Virus record (IMG/VR): IMGVR_UViG_3300028138_000003
Location: 429-64,428 of that record
From: a virus
Direction: 5' to 3' (one strand)
DNA: 64,000 bases
In this document: positions 15,352 through 34,064 of the stretch, one piece after another
Layout: the number at the start of each line of letters is the position of its first letter
Position numbering within the stretch: the first letter of the stretch is position 1
Made by a program: the position numbers and the translations under genes
The notes under the pieces: generated by a model
What the model saw: only the letters and a program-made list of their open reading frames with translations
Told to the model about the DNA's origin: nothing
Databases searched by the model: none

Positions 15352-16362
15352 GTGGGTAATATTCTCGGCACCAGTTTCGCCCAGACGGGGTTCAGCTGGG
15401 ACCCGAACATCTCGCCGAACAACGAGTCGTTTGCCGCGGCGGTGCGTGCCGTTACTACCCGGCTGGGCCTCGGCACTGGCGGCGGGGGTGGCGGCGGGAC
15501 GCTGTCCAACCCGACGAACAAAGTCTCGACGATCGCCACCAACGGAACCTCGACTGCGGGGATGCGCTCGGACGGCGCGCCGGCCATCGATCAGGCCATG
15601 GCCCCGGTCTGGACGGGGGTGCACAGCTTCGGAACGGACATCCAGTTCACGGACATCACGACGCCCTCGGCTCCGTCGAACGGGACGCTGAAGCTGGCGA
15701 GCGTCGCCTCGCCGGCGGCGAATATCAGCCAGCTCACGGTATTCGATGCCTTCGGCGCGAGCATCATGATCGGCTACGAGAACCACATGCTGGTGTACAA
15801 CGCCGGCACGGCGACGTTCACCCGGGGCAATCTGGCCTATATCAACGGGGGCCACGGCAACCAGCCGACCATCGGGTACGCTCAGGCGAACGATCCCTCG
15901 ACCATGCCGGCCGTCGGCTATGCGCAGTACAACATCGACCCGGGCAGCTTCGGGGTCATCCACGTCTACGGGCTGGTGTCGGGCAACACGAACGCATTCA
16001 GCGTCGGTGATCGGCTCTTCGTCTCGGAGACGACGCCCGGGGCGCTCACGAACACGGTGCCGGCGAGCGGCAAGATCTCGCAGGAAGTCGGCTTCGTGAC
16101 TGTCTCCGCCGGCGGCTTCGGGGGCAAGCTGATCGTTGGCGTGCAGACCGAGGAGCACGCCGTCCTGCAGCCCGAGGCCACGCTCTCCACGGGGGACCTC
16201 TTCTACGCCAGCGGCACGCACTCGGTGAACCGGCTCGCCATTGGCACCAGCACGACGCAAGTCCTGACCGTCAGCGCAGGTATCCCTGCGTGGGGCTCTG
16301 TGCCAGGATATGCTGCGTTCGCTTTCGATAGCGTCTTCTACTCACAAGCAGGGGGCATCTAA
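15352..16362 (+). CDS. tail fibre protein (set 1, proximal)
   Basis: GTG start after AGGAGG. Gly/Thr-rich. Contains MRSDGAPAIDQAMAPVWTGVHSF, a motif repeated twice in the 32136-34064 fibre. Confidence 0.6.
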   Translation: MGNILGTSFAQTGFSWDPNISPNNESFAAAVRAVTTRLGLGTGGGGGGGTLSNPTNKVSTIATNGTSTAGMRSDGAPAIDQAMAPVWTGVHSFGTDIQFTDITTPSAPSNGTLKLASVASPAANISQLTVFDAFGASIMIGYENHMLVYNAGTATFTRGNLAYINGGHGNQPTIGYAQANDPSTMPAVGYAQYNIDPGSFGVIHVYGLVSGNTNAFSVGDRLFVSETTPGALTNTVPASGKISQEVGFVTVSAGGFGGKLIVGVQTEEHAVLQPEATLSTGDLFYASGTHSVNRLAIGTSTTQVLTVSAGIPAWGSVPGYAAFAFDSVFYSQAGGI

Positions 16363-16838
16363 TGCCTGTCACAAGCACACCGATATTCCCGCAGTCGATC
16401 ATCAACACCGGCTGCGCGATCCGCAACGGAACCGGGCTCGTCCAGTTCGGCGGGGCCGGCACGGCCACGGGCACGATGGTGCCCTTCTTCACTCCGGGGG
16501 CGAACGGCTCGATCCTCACCGCCATCACGGTGCAGTGCACCGACACGGCGACCTGCACCATGGCGGTCATCCTGTCCACCGGCGGAGCGGGCGGGACCTT
16601 CGTACAGGTGCTCGGTTACGCCGCGGTCAGCGGCGCCGGCACGGCGACCACGTACAGCGTGCCGCCAGTTAACCTGCTGCAGGGTACGCAGGGCTTCGGC
16701 ACCGCGCTGCCGTTCGATAGCTGCGGCAACAGAATCCTCTATGTCGCCGCGGGGTCGACCCTGAACGTCGGCCTGCTGAGTACGATCATCTGGGGCACCG
16801 GGTATCTCTTCGTCGCGGCGCAGGGTGGGAACCTCTAA
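16362..16838 (+). CDS. tail-fibre-associated protein, 158 aa
   Basis: TAATG overlap. Gly/Thr-rich beta-type composition. Confidence 0.5.
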   Translation: MPVTSTPIFPQSIINTGCAIRNGTGLVQFGGAGTATGTMVPFFTPGANGSILTAITVQCTDTATCTMAVILSTGGAGGTFVQVLGYAAVSGAGTATTYSVPPVNLLQGTQGFGTALPFDSCGNRILYVAAGSTLNVGLLSTIIWGTGYLFVAAQGGNL

Positions 16839-18136
16839 TGTCCGGCATCACGGGCGAAATAGGCTACAAGGTCCACGCTGCCGGCGCGGCCACACCGCGC
16901 GTCAACACACTCAACGTCATCGGGACGCTGAGCATGATGGGCACGATGACCGTAGACGGCTTCGTGGTAATCGCGCCGACGGGCACCACCGGCACCGACA
17001 CCGCGGCGCTCCGGGTTGTAGCTAACCGGCGGGCGCCCGCGATCCTTTGCACCAGCTTCGGCAACGCGGCCATCGGTGCCGCCTACGCGCTGCAGGTTCA
17101 GGGCACGGGGGTAACCGGGTTCTCGTACGGCCTTGAGATATTCGCCGGGAGCAACAGCTCGGATCAGGCCATCGATGTCGGCCCGGCTTCGCAGAGCTCG
17201 CTACGGTTCTTCCAGATATTCGGTGACGGCTCCGGCAAAGCCGGCCCCCAGACCGCCAGCAACAAGGGCATCTCTTGGGGCACCGGCGGTGCGGTCAAGA
17301 TCGACGCCACCAATAGCGTGTCTAACGGCGTGGCGCTGACAGTCAACGCTGCGACGGGCACGGATATCTTCAACGCCAACATCAACAACATCCGCTCGTT
17401 CGCCATAACCGCGCAGGACGGCGCCGTGGTCTTGGGCACGGGCACCGCGTATGCCTGGGGCACGGGCACGCACTACCCGGTAATCCAGCTGGCTGGCGTT
17501 GGAGCGCTATACGGCACAGGCACCGCTGGTGTCGTGCTGCTGGGCGGCGGGCTTTACTACAACGGCACCAGCTACATCTACGGGCAGGCCGGCACAGGGA
17601 TCATAGTGTCCGCGGTGAACGGCAGCCTGTCGGTGCAGTGCGTCGCCACTGCAGGTACGGCCAACGGCACGGCGGCGACGACGGCGGTGTTTGTTATCGC
17701 CGGCACGGTCACTTCCAACAGCATTCAGGGCTACGGCCCCAACGCCGCCGCGCTCACGGACATGACGCCGGACACCATAACTTTCGGAGTGACGCTGACC
17801 GGAGTGACACCATCGGTCACCGGCACGATGACGGCGAAGAAGATGGGCAACCTCGTCACCGTCTACTGCAACTCGCTGCTTGGCACCAGCAACGCTGCCA
17901 CTTGCACGATCACTGGCGTGCCGAATGCGCTGGTACCGACGCAGCGGCAGCTCATACCAATCAACATGCAGAACAACGGCGCCAACATACTGGCCTACGT
18001 GGACCTGGCCAGCACCACCTTCACGCTGGCGGTTAACTCGGTCTCCGGCACGTTCAACGGGTATAACTCCGCCGGCTTCACGGCCAGCGGGCAGAAGGGC
18101 CTTAGCCTGAGTTCCTTCACCTACGCACTCACATGA
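16838..18136 (+). CDS. tail fibre protein (set 1, distal)
   Basis: Gly/Thr-rich. Its C-terminal module (AALTDMTPDT...TFTLAVNSVSGTF) is similar to the C-terminus of the 32136-34064 fibre. Confidence 0.6.
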   Translation: MSGITGEIGYKVHAAGAATPRVNTLNVIGTLSMMGTMTVDGFVVIAPTGTTGTDTAALRVVANRRAPAILCTSFGNAAIGAAYALQVQGTGVTGFSYGLEIFAGSNSSDQAIDVGPASQSSLRFFQIFGDGSGKAGPQTASNKGISWGTGGAVKIDATNSVSNGVALTVNAATGTDIFNANINNIRSFAITAQDGAVVLGTGTAYAWGTGTHYPVIQLAGVGALYGTGTAGVVLLGGGLYYNGTSYIYGQAGTGIIVSAVNGSLSVQCVATAGTANGTAATTAVFVIAGTVTSNSIQGYGPNAAALTDMTPDTITFGVTLTGVTPSVTGTMTAKKMGNLVTVYCNSLLGTSNAATCTITGVPNALVPTQRQLIPINMQNNGANILAYVDLASTTFTLAVNSVSGTFNGYNSAGFTASGQKGLSLSSFTYALT

Positions 18137-18921
18137 CGAGCGTACCCACAATTCCTGCTCGGTTCCCCGACCCGCCCGATAGCCGGGCGCCGGCGAAGAT
18201 CGTCAGCCGCTGGGAGCTGTTCCTCGGCGAGATCGCCACCGGCGTGTCCGTGCCCGACGCGATGCTCAAGTGCCTCATCAAGCGGGCCGAGATTCAGGCC
18301 ATGACCAACCAGCCTTCCGAGCGGAAGCGCTACCGGGATGCCCAGCTTGCAGGCCTGCGGTGCGAGTACTCAGAGATGGACCTCGAGGATTTCTTCGATC
18401 GCGTGGCCACTGGGAAGAAAGTGGTCGAGTCGTTCGTCGAGGTATTCGGTCGCGAGCCTAGGGCGAGCTTCTATCGACTGCTGCGCGACGACCCCGACCT
18501 CGAGGAGCGCTATCAGAGTTCGCTCAAGACCAAGGCCATGCTGGAGATGGAGAAGTCGCTGGAGATCATCGACGACGACTCCAACGACACGCTGCCGGGA
18601 CCGAAGGGCGGGGAGATCCCGAACATGGCCGCGGTGCAGCGATCGCGCCTGCGCTTCGATGGCCGGCACAAGCTCGCCTCCACGTGGTTCCGCCGGGTCT
18701 TCGGCGAGGAGAAGAAGCAGGTCGACGTCAACGTGAACATCGACCTCGCTGCCCGAATTCAGGAAGGCCGCATCCGCGCCAAAGAGCGCAAGGTTGCTAT
18801 TACCGCGCAAGAGCGTAAAGATGCCATCGACGCCTCATTTGCTCCAGTGCCGTCCCCGGAGCCGGATACGAAGTGGATGGATGATCCGGAAGTCTCAACC
18901 GTTTGGAGGGAAGAATCATGA
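18133..18921 (+). CDS. putative terminase small subunit
   Basis: It lies immediately upstream of the terminase-large-subunit region. The N-terminus is HTH-like, followed by a charged coiled-coil middle. The assignment is by position and composition only. Confidence 0.4.
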   Translation: MTSVPTIPARFPDPPDSRAPAKIVSRWELFLGEIATGVSVPDAMLKCLIKRAEIQAMTNQPSERKRYRDAQLAGLRCEYSEMDLEDFFDRVATGKKVVESFVEVFGREPRASFYRLLRDDPDLEERYQSSLKTKAMLEMEKSLEIIDDDSNDTLPGPKGGEIPNMAAVQRSRLRFDGRHKLASTWFRRVFGEEKKQVDVNVNIDLAARIQEGRIRAKERKVAITAQERKDAIDASFAPVPSPEPDTKWMDDPEVSTVWREES

Positions 18922-19547
18922 AGACCGTGTGGGAGGTTTGCTGGGGAGTGGCGCTTGGTTTGGCTACGATTCTTGTGCTTAAGGCCTGTGTGGCGACAGT
19001 TGGCGCAGAGCCCGACGTCAGCACGCCGGATGCGATAGGCATCCTCATGGGGCAGGTCATCACTCCGGATGTGTCCAAGTTTCCCGCGTACGACACGCTC
19101 GAGGAAGCCGCGGTGCATGCGGCCGAGCGGCTATACAAGTGCTCGCAGGTCTACGAGTGCTCGAGCGTCATCGTGAAGCGAACCTCCGACGGCAAGTACA
19201 TCAACGGCCCGGCGCGCTCCGACTACTCCGGCGACAGCGTGCAGGTGAATACTTCGCATCCTGTTGGCAGCACAATGGTCGCATCGGTGCACTCGCATCC
19301 GTGCAATCCCGACGCCCACTATGTCTCGTTCTTCTCGCCAGAGGATCTGATCAGCGACATCTCGCGCAGGCAGATCGGAATCATGGTCGACTTCTGCACC
19401 GGCGACGTTCACGAGTTCGATCCGAGCAGAGACGTTGCCGCCGCTGAAGAACTGGAAAACGATCCGGGCACGTACTCCACGCATGGCCGCATCGTCGGGC
19501 ATATCGAAGTCAGCAAAGAGACCGTCGAGCCTCACGTAGGATTCTGA
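18918..19547 (+). CDS. secreted protein with HSHP motif, 209 aa
   Basis: GGAGGG RBS. N-terminal signal peptide MKTVWEVCWGVALGLATILVLKACVATVGA. Conserved-looking segment VASVHSHPCNPDAHYVSFFSPEDL. ATGA-coupled between the candidate TerS and TerL. Confidence 0.5.
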   Translation: MKTVWEVCWGVALGLATILVLKACVATVGAEPDVSTPDAIGILMGQVITPDVSKFPAYDTLEEAAVHAAERLYKCSQVYECSSVIVKRTSDGKYINGPARSDYSGDSVQVNTSHPVGSTMVASVHSHPCNPDAHYVSFFSPEDLISDISRRQIGIMVDFCTGDVHEFDPSRDVAAAEELENDPGTYSTHGRIVGHIEVSKETVEPHVGF

Positions 19548-21040
19548 TGGCAGCAGTAGCGAAGTCAGGCGACACCGCTCCTGCGCGTGCTGCGCAGGGC
19601 GGCTTCAATCCGTCGCAGTCCGAGGCCGAGCTGGCCGAGGACATGATCCGGTTCTACGACGACCCGGTCGGCTTCGTCTATTACGCGTTCAACTGGGGCC
19701 ACGGCGATCTCGCGGATCAGTCCGGGCCCGACGAGTGGCAGATCAAGTTTCTCGACGAGATTGCGGCGAAGCTGCGAGGTGATCCGGATGGGAACGTCAG
19801 AGAAGCAACCGCCAGCGGACACGGAATCGGTAAGACAGCTTGCACAGCGTGGCTTGTGCTGTGGGCTATGTCGACTCGCCCGCATCTATCGGGTGTTGTC
19901 ACAGCAAACACTATGTCCCAGCTGTCCACTAAAACGTGGAGAGAGCTGGCGCTCTGGTATAAGCGCCTCGTCAACCGTCACTGGTTCAAGTGGTCCGCCA
20001 CGAAATTCTGGCACGTTGACCACCCTGAGACGTGGTTCACCTCCGCCGAACCCAATACTGAGCACAACTCCGAAGCCTTCGCTGGACGGCACGCGTACTA
20101 CAAGCTCATCATATTCGATGAGGCTTCTGCGATACCGGACAAGATTTGGGAGGTCACTGAAGGAGCGATGACGGATCCGCGGTCCCTCTGGTGCGTCTTC
20201 GGGAACCCAACGAAGAACACGGGCCGGTTCAAGGACTGCTTCGAGCATGACAGTGCGCGGTGGGGCACGCGACACATCGACAGCCGCACCTGCAAGATGA
20301 CCAACAAGGCGGAACTGGATGAGTGGATCAAAGCATACGGCATCGACTCGGACTTTGTTAGAGTACGAATTCTTGGCTTATTCCCGCGATTCGGAGCCAT
20401 GCAGTTCATTTCGACTGAGTCAGTGGATCTCGCCATGCTCGGTGAAGTACCCTTTGAAGCCTACTGCCTGGTGCCTGTCGTGCTTGGTGTGGACGTCGCA
20501 CGTTATGGGGACGACAAATCCTGCATTGCCGTTCGCCAAGGCCGGAAGCTACATGAAATCCGGAAGTTCCGAGAACTGAACACGATGCAGCTGGCGGCGC
20601 AGATCGTCGCCTGCGGCAAGGACTACGGCGGCGCGGCGGCTGTATTCGTCGACGGCATCGGCGTCGGGGCCGGGGTGGTCGACCGGCTCCAGATGCTGGG
20701 CCACCCGGTCATCGAGGTCAACGGCGGCGCCGTGGCCTTCATGGAAACCCAGTTCTACAACAAGACCGCCGAGATGTGGTACCGGATGCGGGAGTGGATC
20801 AAGGGGTCCGATCTGCCCGCCAAAGACAGTGAGTTACGTCTCGCTTTGATCGGTCGAGAGTACTACTTCGACGACCGGGAGCGTATACGCTTGGAGAGAA
20901 AGCGCGATATGAAGAAGCGGGGACTGGCGTCCCCTGACGAAGCTGACGCCCTGGCCCATACTTTCGCGGAAGAGCTTGGTGACCTAGTGCGCAACAGCGT
21001 CGAGCCGGAAGATGAAAATTCCGTCGAACCAACGCATTAG
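19547..21040 (+). CDS. terminase large subunit
   Basis: Walker A ASGHGIGKT. Walker B LIIFDEAS. C-terminal nuclease motifs VLGVDVARYGDDKS and ASPDEADALA. Confidence 0.85.
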   Translation: MAAVAKSGDTAPARAAQGGFNPSQSEAELAEDMIRFYDDPVGFVYYAFNWGHGDLADQSGPDEWQIKFLDEIAAKLRGDPDGNVREATASGHGIGKTACTAWLVLWAMSTRPHLSGVVTANTMSQLSTKTWRELALWYKRLVNRHWFKWSATKFWHVDHPETWFTSAEPNTEHNSEAFAGRHAYYKLIIFDEASAIPDKIWEVTEGAMTDPRSLWCVFGNPTKNTGRFKDCFEHDSARWGTRHIDSRTCKMTNKAELDEWIKAYGIDSDFVRVRILGLFPRFGAMQFISTESVDLAMLGEVPFEAYCLVPVVLGVDVARYGDDKSCIAVRQGRKLHEIRKFRELNTMQLAAQIVACGKDYGGAAAVFVDGIGVGAGVVDRLQMLGHPVIEVNGGAVAFMETQFYNKTAEMWYRMREWIKGSDLPAKDSELRLALIGREYYFDDRERIRLERKRDMKKRGLASPDEADALAHTFAEELGDLVRNSVEPEDENSVEPTH

Positions 21041-21051
21041 GTGAGGAGAAT

Positions 21052-21252
21052 ATGGTGAAGTCATTGCAGAAAACGGACACGCACATTGTGGCCCACTCGG
21101 GCCGGCAGGGCGGCGTTCCGACCTACGGAGAGAACGTCTACGCGGTGTACAACAAGCGCACCGGAGAAGAGGTTGAGCGATTCAACAGCTTCCAAGAGGC
21201 GCTGGCCGGGCAGGCCAAGTACGACGCGTACGCCAAGACCCACGGGCTGTAG
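21052..21252 (+). CDS. hypothetical protein, 66 aa
   Basis: AGGTGAGGAG RBS. Confidence 0.45.
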   Translation: MVKSLQKTDTHIVAHSGRQGGVPTYGENVYAVYNKRTGEEVERFNSFQEALAGQAKYDAYAKTHGL

Positions 21253-21255
21253 TCC

Positions 21256-21444
21256 GTGCGCGGCGTTCTCCCCATGGGGGAGTGGACGGCGGAGTTTCAG
21301 ACTACGCTGACGCAGTCGGTCGCGGCCTACGACCTGAAAAGTGCGGCGGCTATCGCCGCCGCCATGGCCAAGAGCAGAGGCTGGAAGCTGATGACGGTGC
21401 AGTCCACCGAGGACTACCAGAAAGCGAAACAGGAGCGCAAGTAG
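21256..21444 (+). CDS. hypothetical protein, about 60 aa
   Basis: ORF-track call. The start is ambiguous (GTG at 21256 or ATG at 21274). Confidence 0.35.
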   Translation: MRGVLPMGEWTAEFQTTLTQSVAAYDLKSAAAIAAAMAKSRGWKLMTVQSTEDYQKAKQERK

Positions 21445-21890
21445 TGGAAAAGCATCGGTTCTATGCCGGCCAAAAAGGCAAGCCGGCAAACCACATTCAG
21501 GATTTCAATGCGCCGGTCATCGGGGACAGCTACGACGCCGACACCATGCGCGTCGAGTTCTGGATCGCGAAGCAGATCGGCACGGACCTCGTGAAGACCT
21601 ACCCCAACCGGCAGTGGCACGTCGACGTGGACTGCCGCAATCAGGTGATCGTCATATCCTGCCCCTCGCTCTCCAAGCGGGAGGGCTATCGCCTGCACAT
21701 GAAGAAAGACCCGATTGCCTCCCTGATCCCGCGCTGCCGCCACGCCGCGGCCGAGATCCTCGAGCGCTTCAACGTATCGCGCGGGCGGATCATCGACCCG
21801 ATGACGATGGAGACTTTCGCGCGAGACATGCGCGACGACGTGATCAGCAGCGATCGCGCCCACACTGTAGAGAAGTTCAACCGTGCCTGA
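21444..21890 (+). CDS. hypothetical protein, 148 aa
   Basis: GTG start overlaps the upstream TAG. AGGAG lies 7 nt upstream. Confidence 0.45.
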   Translation: MEKHRFYAGQKGKPANHIQDFNAPVIGDSYDADTMRVEFWIAKQIGTDLVKTYPNRQWHVDVDCRNQVIVISCPSLSKREGYRLHMKKDPIASLIPRCRHAAAEILERFNVSRGRIIDPMTMETFARDMRDDVISSDRAHTVEKFNRA

Positions 21891-24246
21891 GCCAAGCTAC
21901 GATCGCGAGGACATAGGGCAGACCCGCACCGCGGGCGCCGCTGCCGTTGGTGATTCGAGCTACGGATACTCGCGCACCCCCGCCGACCTGCCGCCGGGCG
22001 ACATGCCTGCCTCGAGCGGCAGCGCGCGGCCTCCGACCAACGGCACGAGCGAGATGACAGTCTCCGACGCCGCGGCTGGCGGCGGCGCCACCGGCGACTC
22101 CATGGGCGGGCCAGCAGGACATAGCGATGCGTGGCTGATTCAGAAGGCTACGCAGTTCTACACGATCGGCCGCAGCTACATGGATTCCAACATCACCCTC
22201 GGGTGGGAACGGAACCTCTATCACTTCCGAGGCGAGCATGGTCCGACTTCACCGTACGTACGTCGTGATTGGAAACGAGCACGGACGTTTCGACCCAAGA
22301 CCCGTGCGAACGTCAAAGCGCAAGAGGCCGCCCTCGCTGCTGCGGCGTTCGCGACGCAGGACTACCTCGACGTAAAGGCGACCGACGCCACCAACGAGAA
22401 GGAAGTTATCTCGGCGTCGATCAACAAGGCTCTGCTGCAGAAGCGGCTGGAACTCGTGCCGTGGAACTGGTTCATCACGTCTTTGGGGGCCTTCCAAGAC
22501 ACTAAGAATTACGGCGTTTGCATATCGCACCAGTACTGGAAGTACCAGGCTGTGAGCGAGGTCGTGCCGGCTTTCGATGACCAAGGCCAGCCGATCATGA
22601 GCGATGACGGCGCGACGCCGATGGGCACCGAGAACAAGACGGTCATCGCCGACATGCCGATGGTCGACCTTATCCCTCCGGAGTGCATGCTCTTCGAGCC
22701 GACCTGCGACTGGCGCAATCCTATGCAGTCGGCAAACTGGATTCAGTACCTCATGGGACTGACAGCCGGCGAAGTGCTGGCCATGATGGAGCAGACCGAT
22801 CCAAAGACGGGACGCTCTGCGTGGCGCAAGTACTCGCTGGCGCAGGTCCTCACGGCCTCCCGCGAGCAGATTGATAACCGCGTGCGGCGCGCTCGAGAAG
22901 GCCGCCACCGCGTAGACCCGGTGACGACTCCCGCGGGAGACGAGTTCACCATGGTCTGGGCGCATCTCAATGTCGCGCGCGAGAAGGGCGTGGATGTTTG
23001 CTGGTGGACCCTCGGCACCAACCTCGTGCTGACGGAGCCCCGGCCGCTGACCGAGGAATACCCGCACCTGCGAGCCGGCGAGCGCCCGTTCCGCATGGGC
23101 TTCTCCGTCATCGAGGCGCACCGCAACTATCCTGACGGCGACGTCGCGCAGATGGCAAACCTGCAGGAAGAAATCAACAGCGTCGCCAACCAGCGCCTCG
23201 ACAACGTGCGGTTGGTGCTGAACAAGCGTTACTTCATCCGCCGCGGCAGCCAGATGGACCTCGAGGCGCTGATGCGCAACGTCCCCGGCGGCGGCGTGAT
23301 GACCAACGATCCCGAGAAGGACGTCCAAGTTGTCAATACGCCAGATGTCACCAGCTCTGCGTATCAGGAACAGGATCGCTTGGCCCAAGACCTCGACGAC
23401 CTGGTGGGCGGCTTTGGTCAGGCCTCAATCAAGGCGGGCGGAAAGCAGATGGACCGTTCAGGCAGCATGGACGTCCTTCAAGGGGCTGCCGGCGCGGTAC
23501 AGGATTACGGCATCAAGATCTTCTTCGAGACATGGATGCAGCCGGTGCTTCGCGACCTCGTGCGGCTCGAGCAGATGTACGAGACCGACGAAGTCATCCT
23601 CGCGGTCGCCGCGAAGAAGTCCCAGTTGTGGGAAAAGTACGGCACGTCCGACGTTACCGACGAGCTGCTGCAGCAGAACCTGACCACCGACATCAACGTC
23701 GGTGTTGGCAACACCGACCCGGTGAAGCGCGTGCAGAAGCTGATCTTCGGTGTCACGCAGGTCGTGCAGTTGCCGGACATGGCCCGCCGTGTGAAGAGCA
23801 CGGAGCTGGCCGACGAGATTTTCGGAGCGCTTGGCTACAAGGATGCCAGCCGCTTCTTCATGAACGATCAGGAGCTGCAGGTGCACATGAAGACCACCCC
23901 GCCTCCGCCGCCTCCACCAGAGATCGCTCTCAAGCAGCAGGAGCTGCAGATCAAGGCGAAGGAGAACGACCAGCGGCACTCGCGCGAGACGCAGTCGATG
24001 AACCTCGACCATCAGTGGCGCATGAAGCAGGTCGAGACTTCGGACTTCCTCGGCCACATGAAGACGGCCACGCAGGAAGAGATCGCGAAGATGAAAGACA
24101 AGACCCAGCGCGACCTCGGCGCCGCGAAGGAAGGCAACCGGCTGGCCGAGGTGAACATGGACCGGGCAGATGCGGCCCACGAGCGCCTCGACAAGAAAAT
24201 GAACCCTCCCAAGCCGCCCCCGGGCAAGGGACCGCCGAAGAAGTGA
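21883..24246 (+). CDS. portal protein
   Basis: 787 aa, encoded just after TerL. Size and composition fit a podovirus portal. It has a polyproline stretch and a basic C-terminus. Confidence 0.7.
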   Translation: MPEPSYDREDIGQTRTAGAAAVGDSSYGYSRTPADLPPGDMPASSGSARPPTNGTSEMTVSDAAAGGGATGDSMGGPAGHSDAWLIQKATQFYTIGRSYMDSNITLGWERNLYHFRGEHGPTSPYVRRDWKRARTFRPKTRANVKAQEAALAAAAFATQDYLDVKATDATNEKEVISASINKALLQKRLELVPWNWFITSLGAFQDTKNYGVCISHQYWKYQAVSEVVPAFDDQGQPIMSDDGATPMGTENKTVIADMPMVDLIPPECMLFEPTCDWRNPMQSANWIQYLMGLTAGEVLAMMEQTDPKTGRSAWRKYSLAQVLTASREQIDNRVRRAREGRHRVDPVTTPAGDEFTMVWAHLNVAREKGVDVCWWTLGTNLVLTEPRPLTEEYPHLRAGERPFRMGFSVIEAHRNYPDGDVAQMANLQEEINSVANQRLDNVRLVLNKRYFIRRGSQMDLEALMRNVPGGGVMTNDPEKDVQVVNTPDVTSSAYQEQDRLAQDLDDLVGGFGQASIKAGGKQMDRSGSMDVLQGAAGAVQDYGIKIFFETWMQPVLRDLVRLEQMYETDEVILAVAAKKSQLWEKYGTSDVTDELLQQNLTTDINVGVGNTDPVKRVQKLIFGVTQVVQLPDMARRVKSTELADEIFGALGYKDASRFFMNDQELQVHMKTTPPPPPPPEIALKQQELQIKAKENDQRHSRETQSMNLDHQWRMKQVETSDFLGHMKTATQEEIAKMKDKTQRDLGAAKEGNRLAEVNMDRADAAHERLDKKMNPPKPPPGKGPPKK

Positions 24247-24310
24247 GTTTGATCACAGTCCAGTAGGTAACCACTGGCTGCCCATACAGCTACCGGAGTA
24301 AACAAGCACC

Positions 24311-25120: not shown

Positions 25121-25150
25121 TTTTTCTCGAAAACCAGGAGGGCCTACCGG

Positions 25151-25483
25151 ATGGCGGCCGAACGAGAAGCAGGAATCGAATTCGTCGACGAGCGTGAGCG
25201 CGAGCTCTTCGGAGCCGCCGTTCTTGCGGAGGACGTTCGCACGTTCCTTCGATCCCACCCCGTGGGGCGGTACTTGCACCACCGCGCGAAGCTCGACATT
25301 CAGCAGGCCGAGGCCGACGCGCTTCAGGTCGATCCTGACGCTTGGCCGCTATTCCGGGGCCGCAACAAGTTACGACAGATCCGACAACGCGCCGCCGTCG
25401 CGCGGGCCTTCATAGGCTGGCTGTCCGAAGCCATCATCGACGGAGACAACGCTGCCGGGCAGCTTGAGGAGTACAGGAAATGA
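25151..25483 (+). CDS. hypothetical protein, 110 aa
   Basis: ORF-track call. ATGA overlap with the next gene. Confidence 0.4.
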   Translation: MAAEREAGIEFVDERERELFGAAVLAEDVRTFLRSHPVGRYLHHRAKLDIQQAEADALQVDPDAWPLFRGRNKLRQIRQRAAVARAFIGWLSEAIIDGDNAAGQLEEYRK

Positions 25484-26643
25484 GTGAAGACACATCACAG
25501 AATGCGACTGAAGCACTGGACGGGGCCGCCGCCAAGCCCAAAGCTCCCGTGCGTGATCCCAAGCTGACCGAGCGCGATGAGCTGATTGCTCGTATGGACG
25601 CCCGGGTCGAGGCCCAGCGGAAAGAGGACGACGAGAAGTTCCTCCGCTCGAGCGACGTCGACCCAGCAGCTTGGCTCCTGCACAAGAGGATGCAGGCCGA
25701 GGCCGCCACCCCCGGTGAAGAACCGGCGCCGGCGCCCGAGGAAGGCACCGAGTATGTAGAGCCAATCGAGCCGCAGGCAGCAGCGCCAGTAGCGCGCCCC
25801 GCGGAACGAGTGAGCACGAAGGGCGAGGATCCCCTTGGCCAGTATGTGGTCCGGGTGGATGGCAAGCCGATGTTCAAGACTCTGGTGGACGGGAAAGAGG
25901 AGTTGATACCCCTCGATCGCGCCCGCCAGCAGCTCCAGAAGCACCTGGCAGCGGATGTCCGCTTACAGCAGGCCGCGGAGCTGCGAAAACAGTTGGACGC
26001 CCGAGCGGCTGCACTTCAGGCAACTGAAGCGCAGTTGAGGAACAGGCAGCCCACCGCGCAAGCGCCGGCCGCTCTGGACTTCGATGCAGAGGCAGTTGAG
26101 ATCGTCCGCAGTCTCGTAACAGAGCCTGAGGACAAAGCAGCCGCTAGGCTGGCGCAGACGTTGAAAGCATTCCGGCAAGCTTCGGCCCCGGTAGACGTCG
26201 ACGCCGTAGCCAAGAGGGCTGCCGAAGTAGCGACACGAACGCTTGAAGAGCGTGAGCAGAATCGGGCGCTGAAGAGTGGGTTCGATACCTTCACTTCCAG
26301 CTACCGCGATATTGCCAGCGACCCCGAGCTGTTTGCGATCGCTGACCGCAAGACCGATGCGATAGCCGCGGAGCATCCAGAGTGGAGTCCGGGCGAGGTC
26401 ATGTTGGAAGCTGGAAAGCAGACTCGTGAGTGGCTGAAAAGCATTGGGGCTCCGGTAAAGGATACCGCTGCGCCGAACACTCAGGGTGGAGCGCCCAGCA
26501 ATCGTCAGCAACGCAAAGAGAGTTTAAGGCCCATGCCGACTCCGCGCACGGCGCGACCGGCAGCGACTGAAGAGAATGATCGTAGCCCCTCCGCGTCGGA
26601 CGTGGTGGCGGAAATGAGAAAGTCTCGAGGTCAGGCCTACTAG
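25480..26643 (+). CDS. scaffolding protein
   Basis: 387 aa, acidic and helical, Ala/Glu/Gln-rich. It lies between the portal and the capsid gene. Confidence 0.55.
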   Translation: MSEDTSQNATEALDGAAAKPKAPVRDPKLTERDELIARMDARVEAQRKEDDEKFLRSSDVDPAAWLLHKRMQAEAATPGEEPAPAPEEGTEYVEPIEPQAAAPVARPAERVSTKGEDPLGQYVVRVDGKPMFKTLVDGKEELIPLDRARQQLQKHLAADVRLQQAAELRKQLDARAAALQATEAQLRNRQPTAQAPAALDFDAEAVEIVRSLVTEPEDKAAARLAQTLKAFRQASAPVDVDAVAKRAAEVATRTLEEREQNRALKSGFDTFTSSYRDIASDPELFAIADRKTDAIAAEHPEWSPGEVMLEAGKQTREWLKSIGAPVKDTAAPNTQGGAPSNRQQRKESLRPMPTPRTARPAATEENDRSPSASDVVAEMRKSRGQAY

Positions 26644-26659
26644 CTCAGAGGAGTAGAAA

Positions 26660-27616
26660 ATGGCTGGTCAAGTATGGTCGACTAACTCGCTCGGCGGATT
26701 CATGTTCTCCGTGAATCTGTCACGCAAACTGCGTACGGCGCTGCAGCCCATGGTGCGGTTCCGTCAGTTCTGCGACGCGAAAGAGGCCTTCGGCCTCGGT
26801 ATTGGAGACACGTTCCACTGGAACATATATAGCGACGTGGCAACCGCGGGCGGCGCGCTGGTGGAAAACCAGCTGATGCCCGAAACCAACTTCACGATCA
26901 CCCAGGCTTCGGCCGTGATCACGGAGTACGGCAACAGCGTCCCGTTCACCAAGAAGCTCGACGATCTGTCAGAGCAGCCGGTGACCGAAATCATCCATCG
27001 CGTGCTGAAGAACGACGCGCGTAAGGTCCTCGACCTCGCCGCGTACAACCAGTTCGTACAGACCCCCATCCGGGTAACCGGCAACGGGTCGACCACGGCT
27101 GGCGGCACGGGCATCACTGTCGTGACGAACGGCACCGTGACTGCGACGGCGTCCAGCTTCCTGAGTTCGGCTCAGGTGAAGTTGATCGCTGACCGCATGG
27201 CCGAGGACAACGTCCCGGCGTTCGACGGTGTCAACTACATCGCGATCTTCCGCCCGAGCGCGATCCGCGGCCTCAAGAACAACCTTGAGGCGATCAATCA
27301 GTACACGCCTGAGGGCTGGCACGTCATCATGAACGGCGAGAAGGGCCGTTATGAGGGCATCCGGTTCGTCGAGCAGACCAACGTCCCTGTCGGCACCAAT
27401 GCCGGTGGATCGACGCTGGCCAATACTGACCGCGGGTTCTTCTTCGGTTCAGACACAGTGGCCGAGGTCTTCGCGATTCCTGAGGAAATCCGCGGTAAGA
27501 TCCCGACCGACTACGGCCGCAGCCGTGGTATCGCTTGGTACGCGGAACTGGCATTCGGTATCGCGCACACGGAAGTTCCGGGTGCACGTATCTACTGCTG
27601 GGACAGCGCGGCCTAA
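26660..27616 (+). CDS. major capsid protein
   Basis: 318 aa. Strong RBS. Its position follows the scaffold gene and a terminator lies downstream. Confidence 0.7.
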   Translation: MAGQVWSTNSLGGFMFSVNLSRKLRTALQPMVRFRQFCDAKEAFGLGIGDTFHWNIYSDVATAGGALVENQLMPETNFTITQASAVITEYGNSVPFTKKLDDLSEQPVTEIIHRVLKNDARKVLDLAAYNQFVQTPIRVTGNGSTTAGGTGITVVTNGTVTATASSFLSSAQVKLIADRMAEDNVPAFDGVNYIAIFRPSAIRGLKNNLEAINQYTPEGWHVIMNGEKGRYEGIRFVEQTNVPVGTNAGGSTLANTDRGFFFGSDTVAEVFAIPEEIRGKIPTDYGRSRGIAWYAELAFGIAHTEVPGARIYCWDSAA

Positions 27617-27631
27617 GAGGAGAGAGCAAAC

Positions 27632-27982
27632 ATGGCACGAGCAAAAGGTACTGAGATCCTCCACGCCTCTGGATCGGCGCGTAGCGACGAGATTGGCAAA
27701 GGGATCGTTGGCAAGCCCAGCGAGACCGAAGGCCTGCGCGACAAGCCGAGCCCGAGTGGGGAAGAGACCCTCAACTACGGCGGCGGACACTTCGAGACGG
27801 AGTCTGCTGGTCTTCTGGACGGCGTAAGCGTCCGTGAGACTTGCAATCCTGACGAAGTCGAGCCTGAGTACGACTACACTGTTGATCCGTTCACCGGCAA
27901 TGCGCCTGAGCGCAAGGTCGGACGCGTGAACAACAAGATGGTGTCGGGCAAGGGCAAGAAGTTCTCCCTCGGAGAGTTCTAA
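27632..27982 (+). CDS. capsid-associated / decoration protein candidate, 116 aa
   Basis: Strong RBS AGGAGAGAGC. It lies between the capsid gene and the terminator. Confidence 0.4.
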   Translation: MARAKGTEILHASGSARSDEIGKGIVGKPSETEGLRDKPSPSGEETLNYGGGHFETESAGLLDGVSVRETCNPDEVEPEYDYTVDPFTGNAPERKVGRVNNKMVSGKGKKFSLGEF

Positions 27983-27996
27983 GCAAGGAAGTAGTT

Positions 27997-28032
27997 CCGG
28001 GGGCGCCTGCGGCCCCCGGGACTCATTTCTTG
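27997..28032 (+). terminator. intrinsic terminator / attenuator after the capsid genes
   Basis: Stem CCGGGGGC (27997-28004) / GCCCCCGG (28012-28019) with a 7-nt loop. It is followed by ACTCATTTCTTG. Confidence 0.5.
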
Positions 28033-28045
28033 TAGGAGGCCTCAA

Positions 28046-28471
28046 ATGGCAATGCGAATCCCGATGACGGATTACGAGCAGCGCGACATGGACGCTGGCG
28101 TAACCGAGGACGAGTTCCACAGTCGCAAGAATCTGATGGAAGGCGTCAACGGCATCGACAAGATGAACACCCGTTACGAGAACACCGAGCGCACGCAGGT
28201 GCTGGCTCCCCGCGGCGATAAGCGCGGTCGGCCGATGCCCCGCGATGCGCGATTCAATCAGGCCGGGAACCACGGAGAGTGGGGTCCGGATACGTATCAG
28301 AAGCGTCTTGAGCGCGGCATGGACGGGCCCATGGAGACTCGCTGGTCGCACGGCATGGGACTGCCCAGCCGCGAGGACCTGAAGAGCAATGCGGACCCGC
28401 GACAGGGCGGCGCCGGAGAAGCTGTGCTGACCAACCCTGGCGATCAGGGAGTCGGCAAGAAAGAGATGTAA
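28046..28471 (+). CDS. hypothetical virion protein, 141 aa
   Basis: AGGAGG RBS. Confidence 0.45.
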   Translation: MAMRIPMTDYEQRDMDAGVTEDEFHSRKNLMEGVNGIDKMNTRYENTERTQVLAPRGDKRGRPMPRDARFNQAGNHGEWGPDTYQKRLERGMDGPMETRWSHGMGLPSREDLKSNADPRQGGAGEAVLTNPGDQGVGKKEM

Positions 28472-28483
28472 ACAGGAGGGCCG

Positions 28484-28834
28484 ATGGCCACGCTGAGCTT
28501 GAAGAAGCGTGCCGAGGCGGATGCAAAGCCGGTGTCTATGACGCCGGCTCCTGTATTCGATCGGTCCAAGTTTTACGTGACCGATATCGGCCCGCACCGG
28601 ACGGTCTACATTCAAGGCTCCCACGTGTTCCTGCACACGGGGACGTATCTCGAAGAGACGGACACGCCCGCGGTGCTGTCGCCAGAGCAGGAACGCAATT
28701 TCAATAACGCCAAGCTCCGGACGCAGCTGCAGCAGCTCGCGCGGCATCCCGCGGCGGGCGCGATTCCGCAGAAGGTCATCGAGGCTCAGCGCGAGAACGC
28801 GATGGCCCTCGCCGCCGAAGCGCACTCGGAGTAG
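28484..28834 (+). CDS. hypothetical virion protein, 116 aa
   Basis: AGGAGGG RBS. Confidence 0.45.
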   Translation: MATLSLKKRAEADAKPVSMTPAPVFDRSKFYVTDIGPHRTVYIQGSHVFLHTGTYLEETDTPAVLSPEQERNFNNAKLRTQLQQLARHPAAGAIPQKVIEAQRENAMALAAEAHSE

Positions 28835-28837
28835 CCC

Positions 28838-29656
28838 ATGGCATTGACCCCAGTAGCCTCCCGAACATTCATCCAGCTGGTGCAGGACCTCTTCCGTGAG
28901 GTCGGCGCCGCGGGCGTGGCGCCCGTGACGATCGCCGGCGCGACCGGCGAGGCCGCGCGCCTCGTCAACTACGTCCACGACGCGGAGCTGGAGATCCAGA
29001 ACCTCTGGGTCGACTGGAAGTGGCTGCGCAAGACGCTGACCTTCTACACCGGCACGCAGGACAGAACCGGCATCTTCACTACGCTGAATGGCGCGACCAC
29101 AGCGTACCCGACGGACGCCGCAGAGTGGGACTGGAAGAGCTTCCAGATCTACCCCGCGGGCAATACGACGACTCCGCAGCCGCTGCAGACAGACGAGTGG
29201 CAGGACGTGCGCGACGAGATCTTCGACGTCACGGACTTCAACCAGCCGTGGCGCGTGATCGTGATGCCGGACAATACGTTCCGGTTCGACAACATTCCGG
29301 ATCAGTCGTATCAGTGCTACGCCGAGTACCGCTCGGTGCCATACGACCTCAAGGCCGATACCGACGTGTCCAACATTCCCGCGCGCTTCGCCAACCGCAT
29401 CATCGTCGAGTGGGCGCGCATGAAGTACGGCCTGTTCGAAAGCGCCGCGGAGCAGACTGCTGCCGCGAAGCTGCACATTTACGGCACCTTGGACGACGCC
29501 GGCATCCCGACCAACAATGGGCTGCTCGCCGCGCTCGAGAACGACCAGCTGCCCAACCGCAAGAACAGCCGCCGGCAGCAGGGCAACAACATCGTCATCT
29601 CCACAGATTACGGCGATAGCTGGGACGGCCCGGGTGACTGGCACGGGGGCTGGTAA
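28838..29656 (+). CDS. tail tubular protein A-like (adaptor)
   Basis: Assigned by position in the T7-order structural module, immediately before the 827-aa nozzle-like gene. Confidence 0.45.
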   Translation: MALTPVASRTFIQLVQDLFREVGAAGVAPVTIAGATGEAARLVNYVHDAELEIQNLWVDWKWLRKTLTFYTGTQDRTGIFTTLNGATTAYPTDAAEWDWKSFQIYPAGNTTTPQPLQTDEWQDVRDEIFDVTDFNQPWRVIVMPDNTFRFDNIPDQSYQCYAEYRSVPYDLKADTDVSNIPARFANRIIVEWARMKYGLFESAAEQTAAAKLHIYGTLDDAGIPTNNGLLAALENDQLPNRKNSRRQQGNNIVISTDYGDSWDGPGDWHGGW

Positions 29657-32139
29657 TGGCTGGCGGGCCGCTCATCAAGGGCAACACGCAGTCTAAGTAC
29701 TACCCCTTCAACGGTGGACTTGATGTCGTAACGCCCGCGTTGTCTGTTGACCCCGGCTTCGCGCTGGCGATGGTCAACTACGAGCCGTTCTTCAACGGCG
29801 GCTACCGCCGTATCGACGGGTACGAACGCTTCGACGGGCATGCCAAGCCGAGCCTCGGCACGGCCTACGGCGTCACGATGAGTTCGCTGTCGGGCATCAC
29901 CGGCGTCGGAACCAGCACGACCACCAATCCGAATGCCTATCAAGCCGGCACCGGGATTACGTCGGCAGCCACCTGCATAGTTGTCGCCGCGATCGCAACC
30001 GTCACCGGGACGACCACGCAGTACTGGCTTGGCATCACCAACGTCGCAGGCACCTTTACCGCCGGCGAGAAGATCGTCGTCGGCACGACTACGTCCACCG
30101 GGACGATACTGGTCGCCCCCTCGGTGGGCTTCGGGCCCGCCGGCACCGGCACCGACGGATACTCGTACACCAATGAGTTCCTGGCGGGCGCGCAGAACTA
30201 CTACCGCCAGCAGATCAACGTGGTGCCCGGCACCGGCAACATTCTGGGCGCGTGGCAGCGCGGCACGAACATCTACGCGATCCGGGGCACGAGCACAACC
30301 TCGGCGCTGCTGTGGCGCTCGAGCGCGAGCGGCTGGTCGACCGCCGGCATCAGCTACGGGATATCGGTCTACTACCAAGGGCTGCTGAACAGCGTTCAGA
30401 CCGCGAACTTCACCGCGACGCTGGACACTGGCGGGATACTCAACGTCACCGCCATGACCAACGGCACGATCTACGTCGGGGCCACACTGGCGGACACCGC
30501 CGGGCTCACGCCGATCGGGGCCACGATCATCTCTACCATTGGCACGGCCACGGGGCAGACTGGGCAGTATCAGATCAGCGTCGCCCCCTCGATACCGGTG
30601 GCCTCCGAGGCCATGCTGACTCTCAACCCGGCAGCCCAGTTGCCGACGGCCGGGCAGGTGGTGGTTGGCGCCACGAGCTCTGCGACGGGCACAGTGGCCT
30701 ACGCCATCCCGCACGACACCACGGTTGGGTACATCATACTCAGCACCGCGACGTACCCGGGCGGCACGGCGACCTTCGTCAGCGGCGAGTTGCTGAAGAC
30801 GGTCATCGGCGGCACCGGCACTGTGTGGGGCACGGCGGCGTCCAACGGCACGGCATTCTCTCTGCCGCCGAATGGCTTCTACCGCTTCAAGAATTCCAAC
30901 TTCTACGCCACCTCGGCCACGTACAACACGTACGCGTGCAACGGGAAGGGGCCTGCGTTCCAGATTGACAACAACCAGCTCGTCGCGCCGATCCTCATGC
31001 CGCTCACGCAGCAGCCGGGACAGCCGGGCAACGGCGTATGGCCGTTCCTGCTTGAGGCGCACGTCGGCTTCCTGTTCTTGGCGTTCCCGGGCGGCATCTA
31101 CCAGCAGTCAGTGCAGGGCTCTCCCTTGCAGTTCGACGGCTTCCTTGGCGCGGCGGAGTTCAGCACCGGCGACGAGATCACCGGCATGATCAGCACCCTC
31201 GGGCCCAACCTCGTGCTGCCGACGGTGCACGCGACCTTCTCGCTGGCGGGCAATTCGGACGCCGACTTCGTACAGACGCTGATCGCCGAAAAAGCCGGAA
31301 TGGTCCTGTACTCGGGGCAGCTGCTCGACACGGTATACGCCCTCAACAACCTCGGTATCACCTCGTTGTCGCGCACGCAGTCCTACGGTAACTTCGTAGG
31401 CTCGACGGTGTCGCAGCTGGTGCAGCCGATCGTGACGGCGCTGCGCAATCACTTCACCGACGCGACCATCGTGCGCGCCACCAACCAAGCGCGCTTCTAC
31501 TTCGATGACGGCACTTGCCTCATCATGTACGTCCCGGGGCTTGGCCAGCAGAACAAGGCCTGGTCTGCGATCGAGAGCGGCGTGACGGCGCAGTTCGGCT
31601 ACGCAAGCTATCCGCACCCCATACTGTGCGCGTATAACTCGGAGGATCAAAATGACCTCGAAGTCGGCTACTTTGCCTTCAACAATGCAGACGGTTTTGT
31701 ATATCAAGATCGAAGTGGCACATCCTTTGATGGTGCCGCCGTCACCTCGTACGTTCGCTTGGCCTTCAACAATGTTGGTTCGCCGGCCTTGCGAAAATAC
31801 TTCCGTCGTCTGGACTTGGAGCTGAACTCGTCGGCGCAGGTCGCGCTGAAGTTCGCAGCGGACTTCTCATACAATGCCGAGGCAGCCTCTAGTGCGGTGA
31901 CTAACATCACCGCCAACGACATCCCGGCAATCACGGTCTTCGGCGGCGGCGGATACTGGAACAGCATCTTCTGGAACCAGTTCCTGTGGGACGGGCAGAC
32001 GATCTCCTCGGCACGCGCTGTGATTAACGGCACCGGGCAGAACGTCAGCTTCCTGATCTTCCATCAGGCCATCGTCGACAATCCCTTCGTGCTGCAAGGC
32101 GCGACCATCTACTACGACCCGCGGAGACTGCAGCGATGA
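29656..32139 (+). CDS. tail tubular protein B-like (nozzle)
   Basis: 827 aa. TAATG coupling. Gly/Thr-rich insertions. Assigned by position and size. Confidence 0.5.
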   Translation: MAGGPLIKGNTQSKYYPFNGGLDVVTPALSVDPGFALAMVNYEPFFNGGYRRIDGYERFDGHAKPSLGTAYGVTMSSLSGITGVGTSTTTNPNAYQAGTGITSAATCIVVAAIATVTGTTTQYWLGITNVAGTFTAGEKIVVGTTTSTGTILVAPSVGFGPAGTGTDGYSYTNEFLAGAQNYYRQQINVVPGTGNILGAWQRGTNIYAIRGTSTTSALLWRSSASGWSTAGISYGISVYYQGLLNSVQTANFTATLDTGGILNVTAMTNGTIYVGATLADTAGLTPIGATIISTIGTATGQTGQYQISVAPSIPVASEAMLTLNPAAQLPTAGQVVVGATSSATGTVAYAIPHDTTVGYIILSTATYPGGTATFVSGELLKTVIGGTGTVWGTAASNGTAFSLPPNGFYRFKNSNFYATSATYNTYACNGKGPAFQIDNNQLVAPILMPLTQQPGQPGNGVWPFLLEAHVGFLFLAFPGGIYQQSVQGSPLQFDGFLGAAEFSTGDEITGMISTLGPNLVLPTVHATFSLAGNSDADFVQTLIAEKAGMVLYSGQLLDTVYALNNLGITSLSRTQSYGNFVGSTVSQLVQPIVTALRNHFTDATIVRATNQARFYFDDGTCLIMYVPGLGQQNKAWSAIESGVTAQFGYASYPHPILCAYNSEDQNDLEVGYFAFNNADGFVYQDRSGTSFDGAAVTSYVRLAFNNVGSPALRKYFRRLDLELNSSAQVALKFAADFSYNAEAASSAVTNITANDIPAITVFGGGGYWNSIFWNQFLWDGQTISSARAVINGTGQNVSFLIFHQAIVDNPFVLQGATIYYDPRRLQR

Positions 32140-34064
32140 GCAATCCTTATTACACATACAGCGGTGCCTTTATCCCCGGCATCCTTGCCCGCGCGGAGGC
32201 CGAGTCGACCGAGTTCCAGTCAGTGCAGCAGGGCTTCGCGCTGCTGGCGACCAACGGCACCGACAGCGGTGCGGCGAATGCATATGTGGTCGTGACGCAG
32301 GGCGGCCAGAACGGCTCATATGCCGATGGCATGGTAGTGCAGTTCAAAGCGATGAACGCCAACACCGGGGCATCGACTATATCTGTCGATGGCGGCAGCA
32401 CGATATCGCTGACCGATTTCCAAGGGCAGTCCCTAGCCGGGGGTGCGATAAAAGCGAACAGTTGGGTGCGGCTTGTCTACAACTCGACATTCGTCGCTTG
32501 GACGCTGATTGCTCCGACGTCGCAGGTCATCACCAGCAACACGATCTCCGCCTCCGCGCCGACCAACAAGGTAGGCTTGGTGGCAGCGGGCGGCGTCTCG
32601 ACGGCGTGCGCGCCGATCGATGTGACGTTCGCGATCGACCAAGGCATCGCGCCGACGTGGACCGGGGCACATACCTTCAGCGCTGCAGTAACCTTCAGCT
32701 CCACCGTGACCTTCAGCGGCGGGCTCAGCCTGACCGGGGGCGCGAATCAGTACGCTGCCACTCTGACGGGCAGCAGCGCCTCAGGCCAGTCGCTCGGCCT
32801 ACGCGTCAACGCCGGCACGAACGCCAGCGACTTCGCCGTAAGAATCAGCAGCCAGTCAGCCGCAACGGACTACTTCAAGATCCTCGGCGAAGGCAGCATA
32901 GTGGCGGGAAGCGCCACCGGCGGCGGCCAAGGCGTCGGCACCATCAATGCGCAGGGGTTGTACGTCAATGGTGTAGCCGTGTCCAACGCGGTAGCGGCCA
33001 ACCCCGGCACTAACGTAGGTCTCTCCGTGGTCAACGGCACGGCGACGACGTACATGCGCAGCGACGGCGCTCCCGCGCTCTCGCAGGCCATCGCGCCGAC
33101 GTGGACAGGCAATCACACGTTCACGCCAACCTCTGGCGTGGCGCTCACGGTCAATGCCAAGCTCAACTCCGTGGGCGTAAGCATTGCAGGCGGCACGAAC
33201 ACTTCGAACACCTACATGATGCAGTTGGTGTCGGCGCAGGCATCTGGCTTCTCTAGTGGCCTTTCGCTGAAAGCCGGCACGACAAGCGCCGACTCAGCGA
33301 TCAACGTGCAGAACGCCGCGGGCACTGCAACGTACTTCAACGTCAACGGCGACGGCTCAGGATCGCTGGGCCCGACCTCGGCCTTGGGCGCCTCGTGGGC
33401 TACGACCACCGGCATATTCACCTTCACGCCCGCCGCTGGCAGCTCGTTCATCATCGGCTCCGGCGACAACACGGGCCTGACCACAAAGAACGCCGGAGGC
33501 ACTAGCGTCGGCGTATTCGGCACGAAGAAGTTCTGGGACGGCAGCGGGACCAACGTAACAGACCTAGCCATTGGCGCGGTCGGCAATATGTTCCTTGCCG
33601 CCAACAATCAGATCAACCCCTCAATGAAGCTTCTGGGCATCTCCGCACCGACTATTCAGGGGTGGGGACCGACTGCTTCGGGGCTCGTGGACATGACGCC
33701 CGATACCGGGTCGTTCACCCTGACCAGCACCGGTGGCCCCAACCTCGTATGCGTATGGGCGCGCGTGGGCAACCTCGTACTGCTGTTCATACCCACCGGC
33801 ACGGTCAGCACTGGGGTCACCTCTTGGACGGCCACGGGGCTGCCTTCGGCCATCCAGCCGACCCGCACGCAGCTCCTTCCCTTTGGCCCGTCGGTTATAG
33901 AGGACAACTCGGTTTCGCTCCCGGGAGCCATCCGGGTCAACGCCAGCTCCGGCACGGTGACGTTCCTGCAGAACAACGGTAGCACCTGGACGACTGCTTT
34001 CAGCAACGCGGGCGGGGTCAGAGGCATGCTGCAGGTCGCAACCGTGACATACCTGCTGAACTGA
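32136..34064 (+). CDS. tail fibre protein (set 2)
   Basis: Two copies of the (SDGAPAL)xQAIAPTWTGxHTF motif. The C-terminal module is shared with the 16838-18136 fibre (DMTPDT). Confidence 0.6.
   Translation: MSNPYYTYSGAFIPGILARAEAESTEFQSVQQGFALLATNGTDSGAANAYVVVTQGGQNGSYADGMVVQFKAMNANTGASTISVDGGSTISLTDFQGQSLAGGAIKANSWVRLVYNSTFVAWTLIAPTSQVITSNTISASAPTNKVGLVAAGGVSTACAPIDVTFAIDQGIAPTWTGAHTFSAAVTFSSTVTFSGGLSLTGGANQYAATLTGSSASGQSLGLRVNAGTNASDFAVRISSQSAATDYFKILGEGSIVAGSATGGGQGVGTINAQGLYVNGVAVSNAVAANPGTNVGLSVVNGTATTYMRSDGAPALSQAIAPTWTGNHTFTPTSGVALTVNAKLNSVGVSIAGGTNTSNTYMMQLVSAQASGFSSGLSLKAGTTSADSAINVQNAAGTATYFNVNGDGSGSLGPTSALGASWATTTGIFTFTPAAGSSFIIGSGDNTGLTTKNAGGTSVGVFGTKKFWDGSGTNVTDLAIGAVGNMFLAANNQINPSMKLLGISAPTIQGWGPTASGLVDMTPDTGSFTLTSTGGPNLVCVWARVGNLVLLFIPTGTVSTGVTSWTATGLPSAIQPTRTQLLPFGPSVIEDNSVSLPGAIRVNASSGTVTFLQNNGSTWTTAFSNAGGVRGMLQVATVTYLLN

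What the first reader, a model, noticed from the sequence alone, without database searches (positions are those of the whole stretch)
15562..33121. Three tail-fibre loci sharing a recombinogenic motif and a swappable C-terminal module
The peptide (M)RSDGAPA[IL]xQA[MI]APxWTGxH[ST]F occurs once in the 15352-16362 gene and twice in the 32136-34064 gene. The two copies in that gene share a 19-nt identical core. The C-terminal DMTPDT module is shared between the 16838-18136 and 32136-34064 genes. Two separate fibre sets, plus the isolated fibre-like gene at 1363-2028, suggest a dual receptor specificity or a cassette system for host-range switching.
Basis: seen in the sequence. Interest (0 to 1): 0.6.

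Follow-up and report, generated by a model that had tools for sequence, protein, structure and literature searches.

The report
Two modular tail fibres, swappable heads
An uncultured soil phage carries a core tail fibre plus an optional three-gene accessory fibre built from the same shaft and receptor-binding "head" parts, and related phages show the heads being exchanged by recombination; this is a clean new example of a well-known way that phages change hosts.

Summary

There are two fibre loci, not three; 1363-2028 is unrelated. gF follows the tail genes in all seven relatives whose contigs reach it. gA-gB-gC is an optional cassette between a conserved 62-aa gene and terS. Relatives carry 0 to 3 genes there, sometimes as a single fused gene.

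Head exchange is directly visible. A relative ~80% identical in DNA shares a 410-nt perfect tract covering exactly the gF head. Homology to gC in three relatives stops at DMTPDT and resumes at terS.

I found no invertase, reverse transcriptase or inverted repeats, so the swapping is evolutionary, not programmed. This is a new, unannotated family of a known kind, of moderate interest.

The parts
15148..15336 (+). Conserved 62-aa gene that forms the left border of the accessory-fibre cassette
   Evidence: 62-75% identical in L007, L008, L011, L013-L016, L019 and L034. In L011, L014 and L019 it is followed directly by terS.
15352..16362 (+). gA, the proximal subunit of the accessory fibre. It has a conserved N-terminal anchor of ~40 aa (15352-15486), a Gly linker, the motif element, a variable middle, and a conserved C-terminal tail (16303-16359).
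   Evidence: The N-terminus is invariant across eight cassette first genes (A4). The C-terminal tail is conserved only in three-gene cassettes. The middle (15496-16302) has no DNA homology to L021. An AGGAGG ribosome-binding site precedes the GTG start.
15562..15630 (+). Full motif copy in gA: MRSDGAPAIDQAMAPVWTGVHSF
16362..16838 (+). gB, a 158-aa protein found only in three-gene cassettes; inferred connector or assembly factor
   Evidence: 58-86% identical in L021, L022 and L016, which is better conserved than gA or gC. No Pfam, PHROG, NCBIfam or PDB relative. TAATG overlaps on both sides.
16838..18136 (+). gC, the distal subunit of the accessory fibre. It has its own N-terminus, one shaft unit with a degenerate motif (aa 45-149, 16970-17284), further shaft, and the head.
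   Evidence: gC against gF gives 27% identity over 440 columns, E 1e-26. Unit alignment E 2e-11, with IAPTGTTGTD in place of IAPTWTGNHTFT. ATGA overlap with terS.
17723..18133 (+). gC head module: IQGYGP collar, DMTPDT (17759-17776), then a beta-sandwich fibre head
18133..18921 (+). terS (Sf6-type small terminase), the right border of the cassette
   Evidence: PF20901 E 3e-10, phrog_1482
32136..34064 (+). gF, the core tail fibre: N-terminal attachment region (aa 1-135), two tandem shaft units, a variable spacer, and the head
   Evidence: Follows the 827-aa tail gene in all seven relatives that reach it: L007, L008/L026, L009/L027, L016/L024, L032, L033, L035. More than 538 homologues, none with Pfam annotation. 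aa 39-133 are homologous to Pa193 gp47.
32556..32918 (+). gF shaft unit 1 (aa 141-261), with the partial motif copy at 32631-32678
32991..33356 (+). gF shaft unit 2 (aa 286-407), with the full motif copy at 33054-33122
   Evidence: 37% identical to unit 1, E 3e-18
33651..34061 (+). gF head module: IQGWGP collar, DMTPDT (33690-33707), then the fibre head
   Evidence: pLDDT 86-93 in the full gF model. Same fold hits as the gC head. 34% identical to the gC head.
33660..34069 (+). Recombination tract: 410 nt perfectly identical to relative L032, whose flanks are about 75-85% identical
   Evidence: the next-longest exact match between the two phages is 56 nt

Best explanation
The window is nearly the whole genome (contig 64.4 kb) of an uncultured, podovirus-like phage. 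It may infect a member of the Burkholderiales. It encodes two receptor-binding fibres assembled from one pool of protein modules.

(1) gF (32136-34064) is the core fibre. It sits right after the tail genes in the seven relatives whose contigs reach that position. It consists of an N-terminal attachment region, two tandem ~120-aa shaft units, and a C-terminal head. The conserved first ~40 residues of each shaft unit contain the 'WTGxHTF' peptide.

(2) gA-gB-gC (15352-18136) is an optional accessory-fibre cassette. It is inserted between a conserved 62-aa gene and terS and is translationally coupled to terS.
- gA supplies a conserved ~40-aa N-terminal docking peptide and one motif-bearing shaft piece.
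- gC supplies a degenerate shaft unit and a second head that is only 34% identical to the gF head.
- gB is a conserved connector or assembly factor.

The repeated peptide therefore reflects domain duplication and shared ancestry of shaft units. 'DMTPDT' marks the collar where a fibre-head-fold receptor-binding domain begins.

Diversity arises by recombination between co-infecting relatives at conserved module borders. The main border is the IQG[WY]GP...DMTPD collar (5' side) paired with the stop codon or the next gene (3' side). Lesser borders lie after the WTG motif and at unit ends. These events replace heads, shaft pieces or the whole cassette.

Shown here: homology, the module map, cassette variability, recombination tracts and the predicted fold. 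Inferred: that both fibres are in the virion, that gA-gB-gC form one composite fibre, and that the two heads bind different receptors.
For: Genome type:
- Sf6-type TerS, TerL, portal, major head protein and a tail protein are present, with no tape-measure or sheath hit.
- The window's own contig is 64,439 bp.
- One relative was binned with a Burkholderiales MAG.

Fibre identity:
- gF aa 39-133 match the Pa193 tail fibre gp47 (PDB 9b45), E 1.5e-11 (PMC11456595).

Shaft unit:
- gF aa 141-261 against 286-407 gives 37% identity, E 3e-18.
- gC aa 45-149 aligns to unit 2, E 2e-11, with a degenerate motif.
- Homologues carry 1-3 motif copies.

Head:
- The AF2 model has pLDDT 89.
- Conserved framework with hypervariable central loops across 41 heads.

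Cassette variability between the 62-aa gene and terS:
- No gene in L011, L014/L017 and L019.
- An 82-aa stub in L013.
- One fused anchor-to-head gene in L007, L008, L015 and L034 (833 aa).
- Three genes in the window, L016, L021 and L022.

Single-chain fusions of the gA anchor and motif with the gC distal part:
- P0126, P0129, P0133, P0134 and P0141.

Recombination:
- A 410-nt perfect tract (33660-34069) shared with L032, against a background of about 80% identity.
- gC homology to L021, L022 and L016 ends at 17773-17797 and, for L021 and L022, resumes at terS.
- gF homology to L027 ends at 33127, 5 nt after motif 2.
- In L035, gF homology ends at aa 192, just after motif 1.
- Between-phage nucleotide identity peaks at the two motifs and at DMTPD.

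Operon structure:
- TAATG, TAATG and ATGA overlaps join gA, gB, gC and terS.
Against: - No virion data exist, so the presence of either fibre in particles is inferred.
- The composite gA-gB-gC fibre rests on co-occurrence in only four cassettes and on fusion proteins in relatives. No interaction was modelled.
- gB has no detectable relatives of known function.
- The AF2 models are monomers of what are presumably trimers, and no known fold was identified for the shaft unit.
- BLAST end points tend to stop just after strongly conserved motifs. The 74 homologues are not phylogenetically independent, so the breakpoint histogram is only indicative.
- All relatives are metagenomic contigs, so an assembly chimera cannot be formally excluded for the 410-nt tract. 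It would, however, require a double switch with both flanks staying at about 80% identity.
- The host assignment rests on one binned contig.
Confidence: 0.75

Rival explanations
1. Programmed host-range switching. The two loci would be alternative cassettes exchanged within one genome by site-specific inversion (as in Mu G / P1 C segments), by gene conversion, or by a diversity-generating retroelement.
For: Two loci share a head module and short conserved DNA patches: 54 nt at 72% identity (17723-17776 against 33654-33707) and an 18-nt exact run.
Against: All fibre genes are on the same strand. No inverted repeats link them and no long or near-identical DNA repeats exist. No resolvase/invertase, integrase or reverse-transcriptase domain was found in about 70 ORFs scanned. 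The heads are only 34% identical. DNA identity between the motif copies equals the expectation from the peptides and codon usage.
Confidence: 0.02
2. The WTG peptide is maintained mainly as a DNA-level recombination hotspot rather than for a structural role.
For: Between-phage nucleotide identity peaks at both motifs (0.73-0.79 against 0.56-0.68 in the flanks). Some homology end points fall right after it: 6 at aa 180-189 and 5 at aa 330-349 of 74, plus L027 at 33127 and L035 at aa 192. The element also occurs alone in otherwise unrelated proteins (P0147, P0148, MW202444). The number of motif copies varies from 1 to 3 among homologues.
Against: It is the start of a larger homologous unit, and in the gF model the pLDDT rises from about 53 to 85 across it. 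Most end points lie elsewhere, with 29 at aa 400-419. The within-genome copies share only 18 nt (P about 0.02), below the ~25 nt usually cited for efficient RecA-mediated exchange (my own knowledge, not tested here). Conservation at the protein level explains the DNA peaks.
Confidence: 0.15
3. gA and gC are two independent fibres, giving three receptor-binding proteins in total, rather than parts of one composite accessory fibre.
For: gA has its own 240-aa region after the motif. gC homologues exist as a stand-alone family.
Against: gA lacks a head. gC lacks either anchor type. Relatives fuse the gA anchor and motif to the gC distal shaft and head in one chain. The gA C-terminal tail, gB and stand-alone gC co-occur in all four three-gene cassettes and are absent from the single-gene cassettes.
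Confidence: 0.2
4. The cassette products are not virion components. They could be decaying duplicates, decoys or non-structural proteins.
For: The cassette is dispensable in three relatives (L011, L014/L017, L019), and there are no proteomic data.
Against: The ORFs are intact with strong coding signal (GC3 0.83-0.88). They are translationally coupled to terS. The N-terminal peptide is conserved across all cassette types. The head framework is under purifying selection with variable loops.
Confidence: 0.08

Closest known systems
Lactococcal siphophage receptor-binding proteins (p2, TP901-1, bIL170) and other fibre-head proteins (reovirus sigma1, adenovirus knob, Zamilon Zav_19)
   Different: No sequence similarity (7-19% identity). 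The stalk is different. The phage is podovirus-like rather than a siphophage with a baseplate. The IQGxGP...DMTPD collar is specific to this family.
T-even gp37/gp38 adhesin locus (Tetart et al. 1996, 1998; Trojet et al. 2011, PMC3157838)
   Same: Conserved short motifs alternate with variable segments. [quoted passage not shown] Duplication of small fibre domains alters the fibre.
   Different: No homology: no Pfam or PHROG hit. Here the exchanged unit is a whole folded head rather than loops between glycine-rich motifs. There is no separate adhesin or chaperone gene of the gp38 type.
Anchor-branched dual receptor-binding-protein systems of Klebsiella podophages KP32/K11 (PMC13579863)
   Same: A podovirus with two receptor-binding proteins. 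The second is defined by a short conserved N-terminal peptide (35 aa there, about 40 aa here) followed by a variable receptor-binding part. The receptor-binding domains are exchanged horizontally.
   Different: The second fibre is encoded 14 kb (13,999 nt) upstream of the first, in front of terS, not beside it. No T4gp10-like branching domain or T7 gp17-type anchor was detected. There is no depolymerase beta-helix. The accessory fibre can be split into three genes, with the novel gB between them.
Pseudomonas phage Pa193 tail fibre gp47 (PDB 9b45; PMC11456595)
   Same: gF aa 39-133 are homologous to gp47 residues 246-340, within the built portion (residues 1-340) of the fibre (E 1.5e-11, 31% identity).
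   Different: Pa193 is a myovirus. The rest of the proteins are unrelated, and the gp47 baseplate-binding loops (residues 38-52) have no counterpart here.

Membership tests
Phage tail fibre / receptor-binding protein with fibre-head fold | C-terminal beta-sandwich head domain of the reovirus sigma1 / adenovirus knob / lactococcal RBP type | tested here: met
Phage tail fibre / receptor-binding protein with fibre-head fold | Homology to, or synteny with, proven tail or fibre components | tested here: met
   gF aa 39-133 match Pa193 gp47, E 1.5e-11. gF directly follows the tail-protein genes.
Phage tail fibre / receptor-binding protein with fibre-head fold | Homotrimeric assembly and receptor binding | not testable with these tools
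   Only monomer AF2 models were available, and no host is known.
Anchor-branched dual RBP system (KP32/K11 type) | RBP1 carries a T4gp10-like branching domain | tested here: not met
   No Pfam, PHROG or NCBIfam hit and no gp10-like structure among the top 50 Foldseek hits of the gF model.
Anchor-branched dual RBP system (KP32/K11 type) | RBP2 starts with a short conserved docking peptide followed by a variable receptor-binding part | tested here: met
   The ~40-aa N-terminus has 13 invariant positions across 8 cassette first genes whose remainders differ. This is an analogy only; there is no sequence similarity to the KP32 peptide.
Anchor-branched dual RBP system (KP32/K11 type) | The RBP1 and RBP2 genes are adjacent | tested here: not met
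   The cassette is at 15352-18136 and gF at 32136-34064.
Invertible host-range segments (Mu G / P1 C, Gin/Cin) | Site-specific invertase and inverted crossover sites flanking alternative fibre C-termini in opposite orientation | tested here: not met
   No resolvase or invertase domain. All fibre genes are on the + strand. No relevant inverted repeats.
Diversity-generating retroelement | Reverse transcriptase plus a template/variable repeat pair at a fibre C-terminus | tested here: not met
   No RVT domain. No direct repeat longer than 54 nt involves the fibre genes.
T-even gp37/gp38 motif-mediated adhesin exchange | Recombination junctions coincide with conserved motifs bordering variable segments | tested here: met
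   The 410-nt perfect tract begins in the IQGWGP/DMTPD collar. gC homology stops at DMTPDT in three relatives. Nucleotide identity peaks at the motifs.
T-even gp37/gp38 motif-mediated adhesin exchange | Sequence homology to gp37/gp38 | tested here: not met
   No Pfam or PHROG hit for gA, gC or gF.

The most novel reading that the evidence does not exclude
The cassette is a previously undescribed 'plug-in' accessory fibre system of an uncultured soil podovirus clade. A ~40-aa docking peptide would attach either a single-chain fibre or a three-part fibre (gA, novel connector gB, gC) to the virion. Its receptor-binding head would be drawn from the same exchangeable pool as the core fibre's head, giving the clade a two-slot, mix-and-match host-range system.
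Probability: 0.4. Interest if true: 0.5.

Novelty: new member of a known kind. Interest (0 to 1): 0.35.

Why it matters
Modular exchange of receptor-binding domains is the main route by which tailed phages change hosts, and it underlies host-range engineering.

This locus offers an unusually clean natural example. Module borders are defined to within a few nucleotides, and the recombination tract is perfect. The protein family has more than 500 members but no annotation, no Pfam or PHROG model, and, apart from one uncultured metagenome-derived record, no relative among 50,697 deposited phage genomes.

It also shows an optional second fibre slot in front of terS that holds 0 to 3 genes. If the docking-peptide and gB-connector model is right, the clade would provide new parts for designing receptor-binding proteins and a marker set for annotating fibres in soil viromes. 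It does not reveal a new principle.

Tried and rejected
- Pfam, PHROGs and NCBIfam scans of gA, gB, gC, gF and the 1363-2028 gene gave no hit.
- Megablast of 22 kb against 50,697 phage records gave no match. A 53-aa motif query hit only one uncultured record, MW202444. Pfam found no domain in that 1253-aa protein or in other motif carriers.
- 1363-2028 as a fibre is rejected. The apparent similarity (E 1e-6 without composition correction) vanishes with correction. Its 15 homologues are stand-alone proteins of 116-256 aa.
- 4496-5791 (minus strand) shares a 19-nt inverted match with gC, but it is a lipoprotein with a NosD/beta-helix region. I treated this as a chance match.
- gB is not a cryptic head domain (hhalign probability 0.2%) and has no PDB relative.
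- PDB sequence searches of the 827-aa and 272-aa tail proteins found nothing useful.
- Promoter and terminator scans around both loci were uninformative.
- A neighbour-joining tree and nearest-neighbour identities of 57 heads show cassette and core heads intermixed. However, branches are long, there is no support measure, and sampling is 36 core heads against 16 cassette heads. This is only suggestive of cross-locus exchange, and no near-identical head was found in both locus types.
- A literature search for the motif strings found nothing relevant.
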